From Eledone cirrhosa (lineage: Eukaryota), in contig OZ024752.1 in NCBI GenBank assembly GCA_964016885.1, positions 44,144,001-44,208,000 of the forward strand: 64,000 nucleotides of DNA, given 5' to 3'. The notes below the pieces were generated by a model. The model saw nothing but the letters and a program-made list of their open reading frames with translations, was not told where the DNA came from and ran no database searches. The translations under genes were made by a program, and so were the position numbers. Positions 6,662 through 37,020 of the stretch are shown here, piece after piece; the first letter of the stretch is position 1; the number at the start of each line of letters is the position of its first letter.

Positions 6662-9545
6662 ATTTCATTTCATTTCATTTCATTTGAGTTTGAGTCCATG
6701 CTCAGGCCAGAGTCTGGTGTGGTTGCCAGGTTGTATTCTCTGTTTAATTTTGACATGTGTAGGAGCGAGTTTGAGTCAGTTTGTGCTCGTTGTGTATATC
6801 CTGGGAGATGGGGTTCATCTCTAATGGTGCTTAAGTATCTATCCAGCTGCAATTTGAATGATTCCACACTGCATCCTGATAGATTTCTGACATGTACCGG
6901 AATGGAGTTGAATAGTTGTGCCCCTCGAACCAACAGACTTGACTCTCGCAGGGTTTTTGCTGCCTGGCCAGCCTTTTTGTTGATTGGTGGTAGCTGGCAG
7001 CGTCTTCCGTGGCGCAGTGAGTGGTAGGTTTTGATACCAAAGTTTGGCACCTTTTGCTCTATCATTTTCCAAATGTATATAATTCGGTATCGCTCAAATC
7101 TTCTTTCTATTGAGTACATCTTCAAGGTTTTGAGTCTTTGCCAATAGTCCAGGTCCCTCGTTTCTGAGAAGTATGAGGTAAAATTTCTTTGGAGCGATTC
7201 CATCTTAGATAGTTGGCCCTTTGTTGTTGGTGACCACAACTGAGAACAGTAGTCAATCCTTGGAAGTATCATACTGTTCCAGAGGGTTTTCATTGTTGAG
7301 GTATCTCTTGATTTGAAGGTGCGCAAGATCCACCCGCTGTACTTTTTTGCAGTAAGACAGACTGAGTCAAGGTGTTCTCTGAATTTTAGGCTGGTTCCCA
7401 TGTGGATGCCTAAATCTTTCACACACTGTTTTTCCATTATTTGTTGTCCTGATGGGTTTCTGTAGTTTGTTGTATTTTTCAGATCTTGATCTGTTCCGTA
7501 GCGAATTAGTTCAAACTTCTTATCATTGAACAACATGTTGTTTGTTTCCTGCCATTTGTATATGGTGGTCAGGTCCTTTTGTAAGGCCTCTGTATCCACC
7601 TCGTCTTTGATTTGTCTCATGACCCTGGTGTCATCAGCAAAGGATGAGACGTTGCTGGTTGTATCTTCATCTATGTCAGAGATGAGGATGAGAAACAGGA
7701 TCGGGCCGAGTACTGTACCCTGAGGAACACTGCTGGTCACAGGTGATGGTGTTGAATGGGTTCCATTCACAGTGACTGTTTGAGTTCTATTTGTAAGGAA
7801 CTCATGTATCCATGTACCAACTTTTCTTCCTACTCCTAGCTTTCGAAGTTTGTGTCCCAGGATGCTATGATCTACCTTGTCAAAGTCGAGGTAAATAACA
7901 TCTGTGTTGTATCCATTCTCTAGATTTTCTAGGATTTGGTCATGGTGTGCCAGTAGTTGGGAAAGACATAATCTACCTAACCTGAATCCATGCTGGTTGC
8001 AATTCATCAGATTGTTGGATTCCAGGAACTCAACCAGTTTTCCACGAACTATTCTTTCGAAGACCTTGATAATGTGTGATGTCAGTGAGATTGGTCGGTA
8101 GTTCTTTGGTTTTGATTTGCTGTCCCCTTTATGTATTGGAGTTATGTGTGCTTCTTTATATGTATTTGGTATTTTGCCATTCTCCATAGATTCCTTCCAT
8201 ATCATGTAAAGGGGTTTCAACAATTGTACCTTGCAGTTTTTAAGTATCATGGCATTGAAACCATCAGGCCCCGCAGCCGAGTGCATGGGGAGCTTGTCTA
8301 TGGCTCTTTCTATGTCTTCTGGGTTGAAATCAATGTCGGATAGGGTAGGTTTAGTATGGTCGATATCCTTGAAGAATTCTCCTGGGTCATGGATCTTCAT
8401 GGTTTTAGATGGCTCACTGAAGACACTTTCATACTGTTGACCCAACATTTCTGCCATTTCAATAGGGTTATTCACTACATCCCCATTTTGTCTCTGGAGA
8501 GGTCCTATTGTTGACTTGATATTCGAGTATTTCTTTGCAAAACTGTAGAAACATTTGGGATTTTTTTTTTTTGCACATATTTCTTCGATCTTGTTTAAGA
8601 ATTTCTTGTGTTTATCTGGCCCAGTAAGGTAGAGATCCCAGTCAATGATTTGTAACTGGTTGTTAATAGTTTCCCAATTTGCCTGGTGATAATCATACCT
8701 GCATAGCTTTGGCATGTCCTTTTGTTTAAGAGTTGTGGCATTGGGCTCATTACCAATGTGTAAATGCATTTCAATAATATTGTGGTCTGAAAGGATTGTT
8801 GGGGTTGAGTGAAGGTCAAATAGCGTGTCCTCGTTGGTGAAAACCAAGTCGATCGTATTATTATTTCTAGTTGCTTCTGTCATCATTTGTTTGAGGTATA
8901 ATTTCTCTGTGACTTCCAACAGTTTGGCTGCCTGTATTTGTTTAGTATGTGTCCATGTGATGTTAGGGAAGTTGAAGTCACCAAGGAGGATAATGTCTGG
9001 CATTGGACTCGCCATGTTTCCCAGAATTTGTTGGAGCTTTGTCAGTGGCTCAGTGAAGGATAATGTTGGGCTGTTTGGCGGTCTGTACATTATTGTTACA
9101 ACTGTATTAAGTTGGATGATTTTTATGCACAGCAGGTTGCAGTAGGCATTTGATTCATTGACAAGTTCTATACATGCATAGGTATCATGGATATACATGA
9201 TAACGCCCCCATGGGATCTGCCTTGTCTATCACATCTGAAGATGTTGAATCCATTGATTGAGATTTCGCTGTTGCGGATGTTTTCGTTGAGATGACTTTC
9301 AGTAATTCCAATTATTTTGGAGTTGTTTTCTGTTGCTAATTCTTCCAAGAAAGGGACTTTACACTGTTTTGTTTTCGGATAAAGACCCTGGATATTTGCT
9401 GTTATTATGCTTGTTGTACCGGATACATCTGCCCTATTGTTGGCAAGACTGTTGTAGTTGCTGGGACTGTGCTGACTGGATATTCGGTCTGCTGGGCTGT
9501 CTGTATTTGTTGTATGTGCCCTGTAAGTCCAGGTGTCAGCCTTTG
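6662..9545 (-). mobile_element. Non-LTR retrotransposon of the CR1/L2 (Jockey) group, 5'-truncated, ending in a (GAAAT)n tail
   Basis: ORF 9348-6670 stays open upstream through TANIQGL to ~9555. APE motifs (GITESHL, YRPP, GDFN, SDH) and RT motifs (NYRPISL, PQGTVLGP, FADD). Confidence 0.92.
6670..9348 (-). CDS. LINE ORF2 (APE endonuclease + reverse transcriptase), with probable internal in-frame deletions
   Basis: 892-aa ORF in the track with the motifs above; YLDFDKVDH lacks the usual xKAF and the EN-RT linker is short. Confidence 0.75.
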   Translation of the reverse strand: MEELATENNSKIIGITESHLNENIRNSEISINGFNIFRCDRQGRSHGGVIMYIHDTYACIELVNESNAYCNLLCIKIIQLNTVVTIMYRPPNSPTLSFTEPLTKLQQILGNMASPMPDIILLGDFNFPNITWTHTKQIQAAKLLEVTEKLYLKQMMTEATRNNNTIDLVFTNEDTLFDLHSTPTILSDHNIIEMHLHIGNEPNATTLKQKDMPKLCRYDYHQANWETINNQLQIIDWDLYLTGPDKHKKFLNKIEEICAKKKNPKCFYSFAKKYSNIKSTIGPLQRQNGDVVNNPIEMAEMLGQQYESVFSEPSKTMKIHDPGEFFKDIDHTKPTLSDIDFNPEDIERAIDKLPMHSAAGPDGFNAMILKNCKVQLLKPLYMIWKESMENGKIPNTYKEAHITPIHKGDSKSKPKNYRPISLTSHIIKVFERIVRGKLVEFLESNNLMNCNQHGFRLGRLCLSQLLAHHDQILENLENGYNTDVIYLDFDKVDHSILGHKLRKLGVGRKVGTWIHEFLTNRTQTVTVNGTHSTPSPVTSSVPQGTVLGPILFLILISDIDEDTTSNVSSFADDTRVMRQIKDEVDTEALQKDLTTIYKWQETNNMLFNDKKFELIRYGTDQDLKNTTNYRNPSGQQIMEKQCVKDLGIHMGTSLKFREHLDSVCLTAKKYSGWILRTFKSRDTSTMKTLWNSMILPRIDYCSQLWSPTTKGQLSKMESLQRNFTSYFSETRDLDYWQRLKTLKMYSIERRFERYRIIYIWKMIEQKVPNFGIKTYHSLRHGRRCQLPPINKKAGQAAKTLRESSLLVRGAQLFNSIPVHVRNLSGCSVESFKLQLDRYLSTIRDEPHLPGYTQRAQTDSNSLLHMSKLNREYNLATTPDSGLSMDSNSNEMK

Positions 9546-10703
9546 TTAGAGATGCCTACTGGCTGTAGTAGGTTTTACTATGTATTTAGGTAAGGCGGGT
9601 CTTCTCTGTTACTGAGTACCGCCAAAGGTCTCGGTCCAGTGACATTGTCTTGGAGAGGTGTAAGTGTGTGAGGTCGGAGTTTATCAGCTCGTCCCAGGTT
9701 TTTCTAGGTCTGCCTATTCCGTGGCTACCGTCTATCTTTATTGCCCTGCACTTTGTTATACAGCTATCGACTTTCATGCGCATCACGTGTCCATACCAAC
9801 GTAGCCTTCTCTCGAGTAAACAACATCTGATCCCTCTTATTTCTAATTTTTTCCTTAGTTCGTTTATGCTTTGCCGTTCACGTATATTACTGTTACACAT
9901 CCAGCGGAGCATGCAAGCTTCATTCCTCTCTAGTCTGCGTATATCCTCTGCACACAATGCCCAGGTCTCACTGCCATGCAACATTGCTGTTCGTATGCAG
10001 GCATCGTACAACCTGCCTTTCATTTTTAGGGAGAACCCTTTAGCAGCTAATAGTGGTATAAGCTCTCTGAACTTTTTCCAACCAGTTCTGACTCTAGCTA
10101 CTGTACTTTCAGAGCACCCTCCCCCACTGCTGATTTTATCACCCAGGTAACGGAAACTGTCCACTATTTCTATAGAACCCTCTGCGCAATTGAAAGAGCT
10201 AGTATTTTGTGGGCACTTGCTGCTACTTATTGCACCAAGCCACATGTAAAATCTATGTTCTTAGTTAGCTTACCTGTGATCCCACTACATCTTTTATGCA
10301 CCCATACTTTGCATTTAGGACATAAAATGGAGTTTCTACCTACGCCTTTCCTACACACCGAGCACGACCATTTCCCAGAAGGGACCGCCACCTTATTTTC
10401 TTTCCTACAAACTAGAACTTTAGTCTTAGCCAGGTTAATTTTAAGGCCTTTTGATTCTAGGCCGTGCTTCCATGTTTGGAATTTCTTCTCTAGCTCGGCC
10501 ATTGATTCCGCTATGAGTGTCAGGTCGTCTGCGTATAGGAGTTCCCATGGGCAGCCGGTCTTGAACTCCTCTGTTATAGCCTGAAGGGCAATAATAAATA
10601 GTAGGGGGCTGAGAACAGAGCCCTGATGGACGCCAACTTTTACGCTAAACTCTTCACTATATTCGTTGTTAATTCTAACCTTGCTGACTGTTTCTTTATA
10701 CAT
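9543..10703 (-). mobile_element. RTE-clade retrotransposon 3' fragment (RT C-terminal half with PHD finger), frameshifted
   Basis: ORF 10703-10227 (GVHQGSVLSPLLF, LYADD) and ORF 10245-9586 ([31 protein letters not shown]). Confidence 0.9.
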
Positions 10704-11473
10704 ATGAAGTGTGTATGATATGTGTATGTATATTACATATATTGTATATGCATGCTAATATATATAAATATATGTGCACATAAATATATATACGTGTATA
10801 TGTATGTATAATAGGGATATCGAATCTAACAAAGAAATTATTTGATTCATTAGAAAGACACAGTTGTTACAAAGAAAATATATTTTTACATATTTTAAAT
10901 CAAATTATAGTCAATTAAATCAACACCAGTTTGTTACTGCTGCTTTATCTTATTGACATCATAAGGATGAAAGGCAAAGTTAACCTTGGCAGGATTTGAA
11001 CTCAGACTATAAAGGGGCGTAACTCTATGCTGCAAATCATGGTGTCTACTGATACTGTCAATCTCCCATAATAATAATAATAATAATATCAAAATATTAT
11101 GGATGTGAAGAGAATGGTGTATACCTGTGCCTCCCCAGTCAAACCAGTGACATTCTGGTCTTAGTTGATGGTAACAACACCTATGTTCAGTGACTTGAGG
11201 TTGATGAGCAGGTGTCCTCGCAATTGGTCCTGCTTCTAAGATAAAACTGATTATCTTAAGTAAGGCCATGTTTGATAAAGAAGACAAAAAGAAGACCGTT
11301 ATCTGTGTTTAGGAAGGACTTGTTGATCCATCCTTGCTAACTGAGAACATTTCTATAAGAATATCATTGTATATCCTTCTTATGATGGACCCCTGGAAGT
11401 CAGCAATTATGTTGAGGAATTTCAATTTTATATTTGTGTATGTCTCTTGATTAATTTGTATGATTTTTATGTT

Positions 11474-17464: not shown

Positions 17465-18341
17465 GTTGAAACCGATATTGTTATACTTTGGGAGGGTCAT
17501 GTTGCCAATAAAAAACACACGCACCAGTTGCTTTCACTTCAATTTATTATAAATTAAATTTATAAATTTCCGGTTGGTTGGTTGGTTCCACAACCGGACG
17601 GTTGTTCATATATTGTCAAAGTTCTTTCGTCACACATTCTCTGACCTCTTCAGTGACTGGGGATTCTTTTCTTTGTTTTTGTGCCTCTCCTTTGTTCTGT
17701 CCTACGCCATCTTGTTTTTGTGTGTGTGTTGTGTGCTTAGTTTGCGCATGTGTTGCATCCGGGTGTCTGTGTGTGTTTATATTTGTTTATTTATTTGTTT
17801 ATTTACATGTTACTGGTTGGTTGTCTGTTCTATGTGTGTGTGTGTTTTCATTTTGTCCTTAATTGTAAGTTGTAATGTTGCTATTCCATTCATGTTTTCT
17901 ATTTAATTTTGGTTGGAGTTCATTTATGTTTATTGCCTCTGTGATTTGTCTAAATATTGCGTCTTTTCTGTGTGTAGATTCTATTTTTATTTCTATGTTC
18001 TCTAATTTGCCCTTATGTTCTATTTTAGCATGTTGGTGGAGTATTGATGATTCTTTTCTATCTTGAAGCTCTCGCCAGTGTTCATTTATCTGTTCCCCTA
18101 TACTACGAGCTGTCTCACCTATGTACACTATATTCTTATCTCTACATTGTCCTTCAGTACATCTTATGCTATATACTACATTTCTAGTTTTACAGTTAAT
18201 ATGGGGGCTTAGTTCACAGATTATACATTTCTTATCTATACAGGGAGGTCTTTGAAAAGGGTATGTATTGTTAATAAGTGTTTTTATGGAGGTACCTGGT
18301 CTTTTTACTATCTTAATATTGAGTTTATGTTTATCTAGGGC

Positions 18342-18345
<4 letters not shown>
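17465..18345 (-). mobile_element. Penelope-like element (Neptune-type) 3' fragment: Cys-rich linker, GIY-YIG endonuclease and terminal repeat
   Basis: Open frame from ~18345 to 17859: PPCIDKKCIICELSPHINCKTRNVVYSIRC...C...VYIGETARS...EH...H...H...RQITEAINI...PKLN. Both ends lie at or near (TA)n arrays. Confidence 0.88.
17615..17657 (-). ncRNA. Minimal type I hammerhead ribozyme motif in the Penelope terminal repeat
   Basis: Minus strand: GUCA CUGAAGA G GUCA-gagaaugug-UGAC GAAA GAAC UU UGAC; stems I and II are 4 bp each. Confidence 0.6.
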
Positions 18346-18432
<87 letters not shown>

Positions 18433-18594
18433 TAGATAAATATACATGGGTGTGTATGATTGTGTATAGAAGATTATATTAATAAAAGGAATTCCAATTT
18501 TGTCTGATTTACTCGTTTTATTTACAATCCTTTAACATTTATAATGGTATTAGAATGAAATAGTAAGATAGAATATTAAATGTTAAGTGTTAAT

Positions 18595-18633
18595 TGAACA
18601 AGTACTTTCATGCTTTCGCAATCTTCAGGTTCA
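18595..18633 (-). ncRNA. Minimal type I hammerhead ribozyme motif with palindromic stem III
   Basis: Minus strand: UGAAC CUGAAGA U UGC-GAAA-GCA U GAA AGUACU U GUUCA. Confidence 0.72.
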
Positions 18634-19149
18634 TATTCTGTGGTGACAGTCAAGTTTGCAATTTTCAACTGTAATGAGATGGGTAAATTGTGTGCCTTAT
18701 ATACAGTGAAAAGTGGCTACAGAATGCTAAATCTTGCAAACAGTATTTCGACCAATCGGTGTGTAGTTTCACTGGATTACTAAAGCTGATTGGTTTAGGT
18801 GTCACGGTTGGTTGAGCATGTCTAATGACTACTGATTGACCCTATCCAAAGCATCAATTGTTTTGCTATTTTTAGAAATGATGAAAATAGCATTTTCTAG
18901 TAATCATCACCATCAACATCACTTTTATTGTGGTCGTAGTTATAGTCATAGTCATAGTCATAGTAGGATTAAGACCCCATTATTATTGTTCATTTAGCTT
19001 GGGTTGGAATTTATCAATAAAATTCTTTCTTTGATTTTTCTCTTGATTTCACTTGGGCTGTGTAATTTGTAGAATGGAAATATTATAAATATTCTCTGAC
19101 CACATGTTGCTAGATGGTTACTCAGGGGTATCTGACGGACATTTGGGTC

Positions 19150-19410
19150 TCAGAGTTGCTGAAGCATGGAACAAACTGCCTGCATCAGTTGTTAGCTGTC
19201 GAGACACTGCATCCTTTAAAACTTCCATGCTTCCTGAGATTCGCCAAGACTACACCGAATATTCCCCCTCCATACACACGCACACATGTATATCATGACT
19301 CATGCACTATTCACTTCCCTGACATTTGTACATTATTCTATGTGCTATACATACACCTTTGATGAGTTGTAGTGAACCTGAACACTGTACACAATCTTTA
19401 GATAATTCAT
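19150..19410 (+). mobile_element. CR1-like LINE 3' end fragment
   Basis: RVAEAWNKLPASVVSCRDTASFK plus a conserved 3' tail also present at ~20555-20630, 31125-31203 and 53698-54110. Confidence 0.7.
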
Positions 19411-29400: not shown

Positions 29401-32282
29401 CTGGGTGCTTTCTGTCGTGTCACCAGCACAACCACTTTACAGTGTGGACCGGGTGCTTTTTTGTGACACCTACACAACCACTTTACAGTCTGGACTGGGT
29501 GATTTTTTTTTTTTTTTTTGTTGTGACACCTACACAACCACTTTACAGAGTGGACTGGTGCTTTTTGTCTGTGTGTCCAATATATTTGTTGTTTTTAGTA
29601 TGTGCTTTGTATTTGTGTCTAGAAAGTTTTCCTCCATTTGTGTCTAGAAAGTTTTCCTCCATTAAAATGATTAAATTAAAAGTTATTTATTGTTAACATT
29701 TAAAATCTCTTCTAGGGTTTGATTATAAAACATGTAATGTCCTGTTGGCTGTTGAGGCTCAAAACCCTGAAATTGCTCAAGGAGTACATATTAATAGAAG
29801 TGAGGAAGATATTGGTGCCGGAGACCAGGTGAGACAGTTTACTTCTAAATTAAAACACATTGCTTTATAATGTTTGTCATTGAATTTATTTTAACTCTGC
29901 TGGCATTGACTAGTTTCTATATGCACAGATGGTTCTATAGAAATAGTGGACACCCTCCATTACCTAGGTGACAAAATCAGCAGTGATTGAGGGTGCTCTG
30001 AAAGTATAGTAGCTAGAGTCAGAACGGGATGGAAAAGGTTCAGAGAGCTTATACCACTATTGGCCGCTAAAGGGTTCTCTCTAAAAATGAAAGGCAGGCT
30101 GTATGTTGCCTGCATACGAACACCAATGTTACATGGCAGTGAGACTTGGGCATTGTGTGCAGAGGATATACGCAGACTGGAGAGGAACGAAGCTTGCATG
30201 CTCCGTTGGATGTGTAATAGTAATATACGTGAACGTCAAAGCATAAATGAACTAAGGGAGAAATTAGGAATAAGAGGGGTCAGATGTTGTTTACTCGAGA
30301 GAAGACTACGTTGGTATGGTCACGTGATGCGCATGAAAGACGACAGTTGTATATAAAAGTGCAGGGCGATAAAAATAGACGGTAGCCACGGAGTAGGCAG
30401 ACCCAGAAAAACCTGGGACGACTTGATAAATACCGACCTCACACACTTACACCTCTCCAAGACAATGTCACTGGACCGAGATCTTTGGCGCTACACAGTA
30501 ATACAGAAGACCCGCCTTACCTAAGTACAAAGCGAAACCTCCTCTAACAAAAATACACCTCCGTCCCACTACCCCCACCCTATCCACACCACCCCTTTCG
30601 ATGTAAAGTTATGTTGGTACCAGTCCAAAGTCATGTAGGTGTCACGACAAAAAAACACACAGTCCATGCTGTAATGTGGCCGTGTAGGTAACACGGTAAA
30701 AACCTCCCAGTCCACACTGTAAACGTGGCTGGTGTTAGGAAGGGCATCCAGCTGTAGAAAACCCGCCAGACAGTCCTATACGAGCAAGACAACCAATCTT
30801 GCCTCAAGTGGGAAAATTCCCGTCCAAACCCATGCAAGCATGGAAGATGGACGTTAAACGATGATGAGGTATACTTCACCCTGTGTCATTGGGTCCAGAC
30901 AAGTTAACACCCTTATAAATTGCTTGGGAAGGCACATGGCTTAGTGGTTAGAGAATTGGATTCACAATTGTGAGGTTGTGAGTTCAATTCTCGTACTGGG
31001 TGATGCATTATGTCCTTGAACAAAACACCTTTATTTTTCACGTTGTGGCTGGTAGATAATATCAGCAATGGAAAGACAAATGAAAACCTTGTTTCCTTGG
31101 CCCGATTCGACGAGCTCCACACTCTCCTATGTACTATACATGCACCTTTGATGAGTTGTAGTGCACCTGAGCACTGTACACAATAATTTCATTATTATTA
31201 TTAAACTATAACTACTGCAATCTGCAGTTATAGTTTGTATAGGAGAGTGTGTAGTAATAGGTGGAGTTTGTATACATTACGCTCTGTAATGTGGTTGGTA
31301 TTAGGGGGGGGACATCCAGCCATAGAAACCATGCTCCCAGTACACTCTGTAATGTGGTTGGCGTTAGGAAGGATATCCAGCTCTAGAAACCATGCTCCCT
31401 ATCAAGAACAAAATATAACAACCCATCTAACCCATGCTAACATGGTAAATAGTTGTTTTTAAACTGTTGATGATGATGATGATGATGATGATGATAATGT
31501 AAATATAACTATAAAAATACAAATAGGTGTATCTTCCATGATCTGGTTCTTTGGAGGCACATGGCTTAGTGGTTAGAGCATTGGCCTTGCAATCGAAAGG
31601 TTGTGAGTTCAATTCTCAGACCGGGTGATGTGTTGTTTCCTTAAGCAAGACACTTTATTTCACATTGCTCCAGTTTACTCAGCTGTAGAAATGAGATGAT
31701 AGGGATTGGGGTCCATATCATTCCACTCCAGAGTGGTTGTTCAGGTGCCACAGCAAAAAAGCACCCAGCACTCACTGTAAATGAGGTTGGTGTTAGGAAG
31801 GGCATCCAGCTGTAGAAATCAAGCCAGAATCAGTTCCCGTCCCACCCTTGCAAGCAGGGAAAAAGCGGACGTAAAATGAAATGATGAATGATGACAATCT
31901 AGATATATGTGTATTGTGTTTACATATATATATTGGTGCAATATATATATATGGAGGCACATGGCTTAGTGGTTAGAGCATTGGCCTTGCAATCGAAAGG
32001 TTGTGAGTTCAATTCTCAGACCGGGTGATGTGTTGTTTCCTTGAGCAAGACACTTTATTTCACATTGCTCCAGTTTACTCAGCTGTAGAAATGAGATGAT
32101 AGGGACTGGGGTCCCTATCATTCCACTGCAAAGTGGTCGTGGAGGTGCCACGGCAAAAAAGCACCCAGCACTCACTGTAAATGAGGTTGGTGTTAGGAAG
32201 GGCATCCAGCTGTAGAAATCAAGCCAGAATCAGTTCCCGTCCCACCCTTGCAAGCAGGGAAAAAGCGGACGTAAAATGATGA

Positions 32283-35300: not shown

Positions 35301-37020
35301 AGATTGGTAACACAGAATTAATGTCTAACACATTGTGTTAACATCTTTCAATGATTAGAAGTAGTTTTGGGTTAAGCTTGAAATATTTTTTGCAAGAAAT
35401 CATTTCTCCTATTTCACATGTGAATATTGTTGGTTATTTTTCTGACTTTGTTACGTATCTTTTGTTTCCTTATTCAGGGTCTTATGTTTGGCTATGCTAC
35501 AAATGAAACTGAAGAATGTATGCCACTAACTGTAGTTCTTGCTCATCAGCTCAATGCTAAAGTTGCTGTATTGAGGAGAAGCGGAGATCTTTGGTGGGCC
35601 AGACCTGACTCCAAATCACAAGTAAATAAATTTATCTATTATCTTTTTTATTTTAGAATTTAACCCTTTAGCATTTAAACCAGCTGTATCCCACCAGAAT
35701 TCTCTCACCTCTTTCTGTTCAAACCGGCTGTAACCAGCTACTCATACTGATACTAAGGTATTGATCTCAAAATAAATATCAAAATCTCATAGATTTGATA
35801 TTGAAGCCTTTACAATGAAAATACGATAGTAAATACAGAATAATGTAAATGTTAAAGAGTTAACTCAGAATTGTAGTCTATTTCTAATGCTTTTTGTTTT
35901 TCTCCTTAAGTGTTTTCTTTCTTAAAATGTATAAAATATTGTTTTTCAGGTAACTATTCGTTACAAATCTGAAAATGGAATGACCATTCCCCTGTATGTT
36001 CACAGCATTGTCATGTCTGTCCAACATGACCAAAATGTTTCTCTAGAACAACTAAGACGAGAATTGAAAGAAAAAGTTATAAATGCTGTTGTCCCAAGTA
36101 AATACATGGATGAGAAAACTGTCATACATCTTAATTCAGCAGGAAATTTTATCTTGGGCGGACCTATTGTGAGTTTCAAATGATACTTGGTTTTGTTTGT
36201 CTTTGATCACTTAAGCCTTCATATTTTGCCAGTATGAAAAGCTTGCATTAGTTTACTATGATTTAAAGCTAGTGTGTTATGTGTACTTGTGTACAGTGTA
36301 CACATAGTTCCAGTTGGTATTTGTCACTAGTTTAGTACTGAAATATGAATTTCTTTATATTTTGTATCAGTATCATCTAAATTCTATTAATCATCCTCTT
36401 GTACCTAAAGAATTAAAATATTTCACCTTCAAAATGATGGCATATCTTTGATTTTAGTGATATTTTTTAAGACCTTTAAGATATTGAAGACAGAAATGAC
36501 CGTGGTGGGGTGTTATCTCTGAGCATGCTTTGTGTCTCCCTATTTATATACACATATATATATACCTGCTATGGTTATGTAGCTTATAATTGAATGGAAG
36601 GGAGCATGGGTGGCATGTTGGTGTAATGGTAACACATTGGTCCGGCAAACCAAATATGTGGGTTCGTGTCCCATCTATGTCTATACTCATCCTTTAGGTT
36701 TTTTTAAAATCCCAACTAACAAACTAATTTTATTTAATCAAATATGGCGTAAGCACATGTTACTACCTAATTTTCAAATTCACTAGTTGTTTGTTAACAA
36801 AGCCTGCTTTGTGTCTCCCTGTTTATTTATATATATATATATATATATATAAACCTCCCAGTCCACACTGTAAACGTGGTTGGTGTTAGGAAGGGCATCC
36901 AGCCGTAGAAAACCCGCCAGACAGTCCAATACGAGCAAGACAACCAATCTTGCCTCAAGTGGGAAAATTCCCGTCCAAACCCATGCAAGCGTGGAAGATG
37001 GACGTTAAACGATGATGATG

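What the first reader, a model, noticed from the sequence alone, without database searches (positions are those of the whole stretch)
18595..18633. Second, different minimal hammerhead with a palindromic stem III
Minus strand: 5-bp stem I UGAAC/GUUCA, CUGAAGA core, UGC-GAAA-GCA stem II (with a U-U mismatch next to the core), GAAA, and palindromic AGUACU before a CUU site. A palindromic stem III is the hallmark of minimal hammerheads that cleave as dimers in Penelope repeats and animal retrozymes. No ORF explains this 39-nt motif.
Basis: partly seen in the sequence, partly recalled or inferred. Interest (0 to 1): 0.72.

Follow-up and report, generated by a model that had tools for sequence, protein, structure and literature searches.

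The report
Penelope hammerhead with traces of cutting
This is one of thousands of genomic copies of the small hammerhead RNA motif already known from the end repeats of Penelope-like jumping genes; it is predicted to cut only as a pair, and a few copies that begin exactly at the predicted cut site suggest it likely does cut, rarely, in the living animal.

Summary
The motif is real and correctly described. It lies in the 3' pseudo-LTR of a dead, 5'-truncated Penelope-like element (PLE). Longer copies put an RT and GIY-YIG ORF upstream, and three loci carry the ORF between two hammerheads 4.2-4.3 kb apart. Its core pattern has 6,021 exact matches in the genome. A related family keeps the fold through compensatory changes. 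The U·U mismatch and dimer-type palindrome have published precedents, so this is a new member of a known kind; the scan met the class before on other DNA. Most copies run through the cut site. The extra lead: 5 of 27 break-point rows at the predicted scissile bond join it, with 0-1 nt microhomology, to distant ORF pieces or 18S rRNA, against 0 of 45 rows at four control positions. That is what reverse transcription of a cut RNA would leave. The class was defined after seeing the first cases, the numbers are small and no RNA data were available. Cleavage itself is untested.

The parts
18595..18633 (-). Minimal type-I hammerhead motif, family A: 5-bp stem I, intact core, stem II of U10.1·U11.1 plus 3 bp and a GAAA loop, palindromic stem III, CUU site
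   Evidence: 6,021 exact core-pattern matches in G000 and 0 for the reversed control
18600..18607 (-). Palindrome of stem III (6 bp, A15.1 to U16.1); extends to 8 bp if A14 pairs with U17
   Evidence: sequence; co-folding of two copies
18599..18600 (-). Predicted scissile bond, U17 (18600) / G1.1 (18599); other copies of the family show junctions at this place
18646..18672 (-). Imperfect hairpin 13-40 nt upstream of the motif; commonest 5' end and inversion point of family A copies (inferred: likely the RNA's 5' end)
18983..19161 (-). 3' remnant of the element's ORF (end of the GIY-YIG endonuclease), frameshifted; the copy is 5'-truncated at 19161
   Evidence: 91% identity to residues 373-418 of the L019 C-terminal ORF piece; Pfam GIY-YIG on that piece; match boundaries
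18445..18982 (-). 3' UTR / pseudo-LTR of the family A Penelope-like element
18345..18444 (.). (TA)n microsatellite at which the copy ends; full elements carry a (TA)n tract between pLTR tail and ORF start
17615..17657 (-). Neighbouring hammerhead of a different PLE family (B), with G10.1-C11.1 and an extra nucleotide; this copy's palindrome is mutated
17859..18345 (-). GIY-YIG-like ORF remnant of the family B element
   Evidence: translation; weak tblastn link of family B loci to the family A endonuclease; no Pfam hit at E 0.01

Best explanation
The 39-nt motif is a minimal hammerhead in the 3' pseudo-LTR of a 5'-truncated Penelope-like retrotransposon, predicted to cut only when two copies pair through the AGUACU palindrome, and likely to cut only a small share of the element's RNA. 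Shown: the anatomy, the element, the copy number, the two-hammerhead architecture of longer copies and covariation between families. Inferred: in a transcript spanning pLTR-ORF-pLTR, or in two RNAs held by the element's protein, the palindromes form a 6-bp stem III and the stem I strands swap between copies, giving two active sites. U10.1·U11.1, the CUU triplet and a competing A14-U17 pair would make it slow. Most RNA is reverse-transcribed through the site, from the internal (TA)n tract back to about position 18672. Occasionally the reverse transcriptase meets the 5' end made by cleavage, then folds back or jumps to another RNA. This solo, ORF-less copy has no same-family partner in the window and is likely inert.
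For: Element: the match to other loci runs 19161 to about 18445; upstream ORFs in those loci hit RVT_1 and GIY-YIG; L011, L012 and L213 hold RT/EN hits between same-strand hammerheads 4,202, 4,302 and 4,202 bp apart. Selection on the fold: family C (endonuclease 52% identical) keeps core and palindrome; 5 of 11 pairs change on both sides, 0 of 500 shuffles reach that, and slid controls give 0-2 (10 sequences: the window copy and 9 family C copies). In 30 copies picked by a 25-mer outside the motif, variants shared by 3 or more copies number 0 in the 39-nt motif and 37 in 342 flanking nt, while the private mutation rate is similar (1.5% against 1.1-2.7%). Precedent: U10.1·U11.1 occurs in natural hammerheads (PMC3088659) and in an axolotl family that cleaves better as a dimer (PMC7229834). 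Family E of this genome also has it, with 27,698 pattern matches. Rare cutting.
Against: No cleavage assay and no RNA data. CUU is in the slowest class of NUH triplets (PMC8879150 passage). The lowest-energy dimer (-16.4 kcal/mol) pairs A14 with U17 and would be inactive. The G10.1-C11.1 pair and the extra nucleotide of the published consensus are absent. At least 6,021 copies run through the site, against 27 filtered rows that break there. Total break counts show no strong excess: 27 at the site against 13 and 23 at the nearest controls. Most family C departures involve single sequences, and the both-side changes rest on one sequence each. The 30-copy sample includes both arms of inverted pairs, so it is not fully independent. 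One DNA run of another sample shows a palindrome-breaking variant at 18604 in about 15% of depth. In Anolis, hammerhead mutants did not affect insertion in vitro and no reads ended at the cut site (PMC11167929).
Confidence: 0.8

Rival explanations
1. The motif is a conserved protein-binding or dimerisation structure of the pLTR that no longer cuts. Junctions at 18599 arise because reverse transcriptase stalls where the 8-bp intermolecular palindrome helix begins (U17 is its first base), or from local palindromes.
For: The lowest-energy dimer helix starts exactly at 18600. CUU and U·U are weak variants. Many breaks near the site are snap-backs driven by microhomology. Total break counts are not sharply peaked.
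Against: All catalytic core positions are kept across families A to E, and family D shows the U3-A8 core swap. The distal joins have 0-1 nt microhomology, unlike many of the joins 4 nt away. In L203, L205, L208 and G000:C4:214593112 both arms stop at the same base.
Confidence: 0.12
2. The joins at 18599 are made at DNA level: the element's endonuclease nicks an older copy there and a new cDNA is primed internally on the ORF, or the RNA starts there from a pLTR promoter.
For: A PLE protein cuts its own pLTR DNA and starts reverse transcription internally (PMC11167929). pLTRs hold promoters (PMC6765202 passage).
Against: None of the four ORF-joined loci, nor the rRNA locus, keeps the upstream half of a hammerhead within the 4.5-5.9 kb fetched. 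The donor ends differ in all four. The dominant 5' end is about 70 nt upstream, at 18663-18673.
Confidence: 0.05
3. The motif belongs to a non-autonomous tandem retrozyme that spreads as a small circular RNA.
For: Short copies of about 200 bp are common. Family E in the same genome forms 424-bp arrays.
Against: Among the first 100 listed family A copies, neighbours within 10 kb are 21 inverted pairs and 2 same-strand pairs (2,205 and 4,202 bp); none is a short direct repeat. This copy ends in an ORF remnant.
Confidence: 0.03

Closest known systems
Minimal hammerheads (min-HHR) and small-palindromic-helix-III variants in pLTRs of metazoan Penelope-like elements (Cervera and De la Pena 2014, PMC4209133)
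   Same: Type I, intact core, short helix I, palindromic positions 15.2-16.2 with a 2-nt insertion, location in pLTRs around an RT plus GIY-YIG ORF, mostly solo truncated copies, inverted pairs 100-700 bp apart, predicted dimer action. U17 is common in their Figure S3.
   Different: No extra nucleotide after A9 and no G10.1-C11.1; helix II is only 3 bp over a U·U mismatch. I saw no row with this helix II among the sequences printed in Figure S3 (read by eye from machine-read text, two of three parts of the file).
Axolotl HHR_Amex2 retrozyme hammerhead (PMC7229834)
   Same: U·U mismatch at the base of helix II, short helix III, better cleavage as a dimer.
   Different: It sits in 350-bp tandem retrozymes expressed as circular RNA and has loop-loop contacts; family A sits in an autonomous element and no loop 1-loop 2 contact is evident.
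Hammerhead of the Anolis Poseidon element PAc (Frangieh et al. 2024, PMC11167929)
   Same: pLTR hammerhead of an EN+ PLE; uncut RNA is the main template; preference for AT-rich targets.
   Different: There the motif overlaps the ORF start and no ends were found at the cut site. Here it lies about 150 nt before the (TA)n tract, and rare genomic junctions map to the cut site.
Neptune/Nematis-type EN+ PLEs (Craig et al. 2021, PMC8557442)
   Same: C-terminal GIY-YIG, CX4CXXC linker before it, DKG motif, (TA)n association, tandem and inverted insertions.
   Different: Clade not placed by a tree here.

Membership tests
min-HHR of metazoan PLE pLTRs | Intact core C3-A9, G12-A15.1, U16.1, H17 | tested here: met
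   core nearly invariant in the 24 of 30 sampled copies that cover it
min-HHR of metazoan PLE pLTRs | Short helix I (2-5 bp), type I topology | tested here: met
   5 bp; covaries with family C
min-HHR of metazoan PLE pLTRs | Palindromic 15.2-16.2 and loop 3 | tested here: met
   AGUACU; other families in the loci use other palindromes
min-HHR of metazoan PLE pLTRs | Located in pLTRs flanking an RT plus GIY-YIG ORF | tested here: met
   L011, L012, L213; Pfam hits
min-HHR of metazoan PLE pLTRs | Consensus traits (over 80% of published motifs, not universal): extra nucleotide after A9 and G10.1-C11.1 | tested here: not met
   U10.1·U11.1 and no extra base; consensus in PMC4209133; U·U precedent
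min-HHR of metazoan PLE pLTRs | Self-cleavage as a dimer in vitro | not testable with these tools
   energy model only
min-HHR of metazoan PLE pLTRs | RNA ends at the predicted site in vivo | tested here: inconclusive
   genomic junctions only: 5 of 27 rows against 0 of 45
EN+ Penelope-like element, Neptune/Nematis type | Single ORF with RT, then CX2-5CXXC linker, then C-terminal GIY-YIG | tested here: met
   broken but readable in L019 and L029
EN+ Penelope-like element, Neptune/Nematis type | Placement in the clade by RT phylogeny | not tested
   no reference set fetched
Non-LTR retrozyme | Head-to-tail repeats of a few hundred bp without ORF | tested here: not met
   0 short direct repeats among the first 100 of 6,021 listed copies
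Non-LTR retrozyme | Expressed as small circular RNA | not testable with these tools
   no raw RNA reads laid

The most novel reading that the evidence does not exclude
The genome holds fossils of hammerhead cleavage in vivo. Family A retrocopies begin exactly at the scissile bond and are joined without microhomology to ORF fragments, to an 18S rRNA fragment or head-to-head to each other, and a 455-bp family D array starts within 1 nt of its own cut site. A PLE hammerhead with a U·U mismatch and a CUU site would therefore cut a small share of transcripts in the germ line, and the PLE reverse transcriptase would jump templates from the cut end. In this reading, seamless re-joining or circularisation of cut RNA could be hiding among the 'uncut' copies.
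Probability: 0.55. Interest if true: 0.58.

Novelty: new member of a known kind. Interest (0 to 1): 0.33.

Why it matters
The motif class has been known since 2014, so its presence here is expected. What is open is whether PLE hammerheads cut in vivo and what for: Craig et al. call the function unclear, and Frangieh et al. found no RNA ends at the site. If the junction signal holds, thousands of dispersed copies give a sequence-only readout of cleavage and of template jumping by a telomerase-like reverse transcriptase. The same genome holds a young, intact family (D) suited to a reconstituted test.

Tried and rejected
Rfam at gathering score found only a tRNA-like hit in the window. No RNA holder listed for the stretch, so expression was not examined; 2 of the 4 listed runs were laid, both as contigs. 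The pattern had the wrong length and gave 0; one search corrected it. An alternative parse, with the first GAAA as core, no stem II and a hairpin stem III, costs +1.9 kcal/mol and does not fit families B and C; rejected. An A x B heterodimer within the window is rejected: the stem I arms are not complementary and B's palindrome is mutated. A co-mobilised A-B unit is rejected: L011 and L015 have other DNA between A and B, and identities differ (about 96% against 88%). A palindrome as family code is rejected: A, B and C share AGUACU. Total break counts at the cut site are not convincing alone (27 against 13, 23, 8 and 1 rows; one-sided P about 0.07 among the first three). The replicate in family D was inconclusive, because the T-run after its site creates microhomology with TA targets (100 of 147 rows read by eye). 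Lunse et al. (RNA Biol 14:1499) could not be read; it may already list this family.

Full report
Observation. The motif is present as described on the minus strand, 18633 to 18595, with the scissile bond at 18600/18599. A descriptor needing the core, stem II of at least 3 bp, a palindromic stem III and stem I of at least 4 bp gave 1 hit in the window and none in 300 shuffled windows. As a monomer it folds stems I and II only and is no more stable than shuffles (z -0.28). Rfam does not report it.

Context. The window is part of a 3.0-Gb AT-rich animal genome, G000. It looks like a cephalopod from recall of its repeats; I did not test that. A 141-nt query returned 40 scored matches at 96-100% identity, and the 28-nt core pattern matches 6,021 times with 0 for the control. 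In 20 fetched stretches the shared sequence runs from window 19161 to about 18445, then (TA)n. Upstream ORF pieces hit RVT_1 and GIY-YIG. L019 shows a whole broken ORF with a DKG motif and a CX4CXXC linker, the linker that marks Neptune and Nematis elements (PMC8557442 passages). In 3 of the 6 loci I tested, RT/EN hits lie between two same-strand hammerheads 4.2-4.3 kb apart; the other 3 have one hammerhead downstream of the ORF. The window's copy keeps only the last 60 codons or so of the ORF and is the only family A motif in the window.

Comparative evidence. Other hammerhead families occur in the genome. B is the window's second motif. C has an endonuclease 52% identical to A. D is young, with intact 777-aa ORFs and a U3-A8 core. 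E has 27,698 pattern matches, many in arrays. On an alignment of the window motif with 9 family C copies, 89% of cells pair and 5 of 11 pairs change on both sides; shuffles and slid controls do not reach this. Those changes each rest on one sequence. In 30 family A copies chosen by a 25-mer outside the motif (the first 30 of 7,245 matches), shared variants avoid the motif (0 in 39 nt against 37 in 342 nt), while private mutations hit it at the background rate. This fits selection on source elements and neutral decay afterwards. The earlier conservation figure is biased by how those loci were picked and is not used.

Departures from the consensus. The published consensus has an extra base after A9 and G10.1-C11.1 (PMC4209133, parts 1-2 of 4 of the text and parts 1-2 of 3 of the supplement). 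Family A has U10.1·U11.1; family C mostly has A-U there, so the mismatch is likely derived. U·U at this place is known in nature and is the best tolerated mispair (PMC3088659, section 8). An axolotl family with it cleaves, more so as a dimer (PMC7229834, section 15). Family E has it too, with stem I variants that keep pairing. CUU is listed among the slowest triplets (PMC8879150 passages). Co-folding gives -13.8 kcal/mol for the active dimer, -8.4 for two monomers and -16.4 for a form pairing A14 with U17. A slow, dimer-dependent and possibly protein-assisted ribozyme is the expected result; protein assistance was shown for the Anolis element (PMC11167929, parts 1-2 of 4).

How copies are made. 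Eleven of 30 sampled copies begin at 18663-18673, at an imperfect hairpin. In the mixed set of loci held, 29 of 78 truncated hairpin copies start at 18672, partly through microhomology. Contig depth falls about tenfold above 18690 in two runs of one study. Among the first 100 listed copies, 21 neighbour pairs within 10 kb are head-to-head and 2 are same-strand. Most templates therefore spanned the hammerhead uncut, or were re-joined without a trace.

Traces of cutting. I counted copies whose match to the element stops at a given base, with matched filters. The cut site gave 27 rows. Controls 3 nt downstream and 4, 10 and 20 nt upstream gave 13, 23, 8 and 1 rows. All 72 rows were classified. 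At the cut site, four loci join G18599 to distant, different positions of the element's own ORF with 0-1 nt overlap. One joins it to 289 nt of rRNA-like sequence (SSU rRNA, 184.5 bits; the Rfam match spills into the flanks), with a second arm also starting at G18599. No control row has a distal ORF or rRNA donor: 5 of 27 against 0 of 45, Fisher P 0.006. One control row joins unrelated flank without a donor. The four ORF chimeras and the rRNA locus keep no upstream half of a hammerhead nearby. Of 48 inverted junctions near the site, 3 have both arms stopping at G18599 with a spacer of 0, 2 or 4 nt, read by eye; most others are microhomology snap-backs. In family D, a 455-bp tandem array starts within 1 nt of that family's cut site and runs into the ORF start, but the D break profile is otherwise confounded by a T-run. 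Caveats: I defined the distal-donor class after seeing three cases; filters catch only part of the events and differ by position; the control 4 nt upstream is biased against TA joins; totals alone are not significant; stalling at the 8-bp helix remains possible.

Novelty. The class, the dimer model and the U·U variant are published. Seven library searches (listings and abstract starts only) showed no paper describing this family or junctions at a PLE hammerhead cut site. Lunse et al. was not held and is known to me only from a review's passages (PMC6765202) and recall. I also saw parts 1-2 of 5 of bioRxiv 10.64898/2026.07.22.740005, passages of bioRxiv 10.1101/2021.04.23.441226 and of PMC6962438; bioRxiv supplements were not seen. 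A sequence look-up in the scan's notes found nothing. A word look-up, made after the junction analysis, found the same class on other DNA.

Verdict. A real, ordinary member of a known class in a dead copy, with a modest new lead that the family's hammerhead cuts rarely in vivo.

Noticed in passing
G000 genome-wide; L212:1227-4400, L214, L161-L172: Family E hammerhead with U10.1·U11.1, variable N7 and a different palindrome: 27,698 pattern matches, many in head-to-tail arrays of about 420-500 bp (424 bp x 7.5 in L212). Looks like a non-LTR retrozyme family.
   Followed up: partly
L026:7519-9849 (-), L101-L130: Young PLE family D: 150 scored matches at 99-100% identity, many with an intact 777-aa ORF, and a hammerhead with the U3-A8 core swap and only about 2 bp of stem I.
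   Followed up: partly
L311 (G000:C4:321064500-321072800): Inverted double array of a 455-bp family D unit that starts within 1 nt of the predicted cut site and ends inside the ORF; would fit a rolled circle.
   Followed up: partly
L208:535-823: 289-nt SSU rRNA-like piece between two family A arms that both start at the cut site.
   Followed up: yes
window 18646-18672 (-): Hairpin that marks the dominant 5' end and inversion point of family A; possible transcription start. No clear extra cap-derived G.
   Followed up: partly
window 17615-18345 (-): Family B PLE remnant with its own hammerhead directly after the (TA)n tract; family A copies also lie near family B copies in L011, L015 and L086, probably through shared TA targeting.
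   Followed up: partly
window 6670-10754 (-): LINE-type element: 960-aa ORF with APE endonuclease and RT, and a separate frame with RT and PHD-finger hits.
   Followed up: no
window 31552-32279 and 36612-36682: 400-bp near-tandem repeat starting with a tRNA-like head, and a tRNA-like Rfam hit; likely SINE-derived.
   Followed up: no
L021:3649 (+), L084:2365 (-), L027:5861 (+), L031:938 (-), L087:2972 (-), L048:2644 (-), L095:27 (+), L037:929 (+): Further hammerhead-like families with other palindromes, including an 8-nt AT-only one.
   Followed up: no
window 18604, run X4: A variant that breaks the palindrome at about 15% of depth in one run of a second sample, nearly absent in run X1.
   Followed up: no
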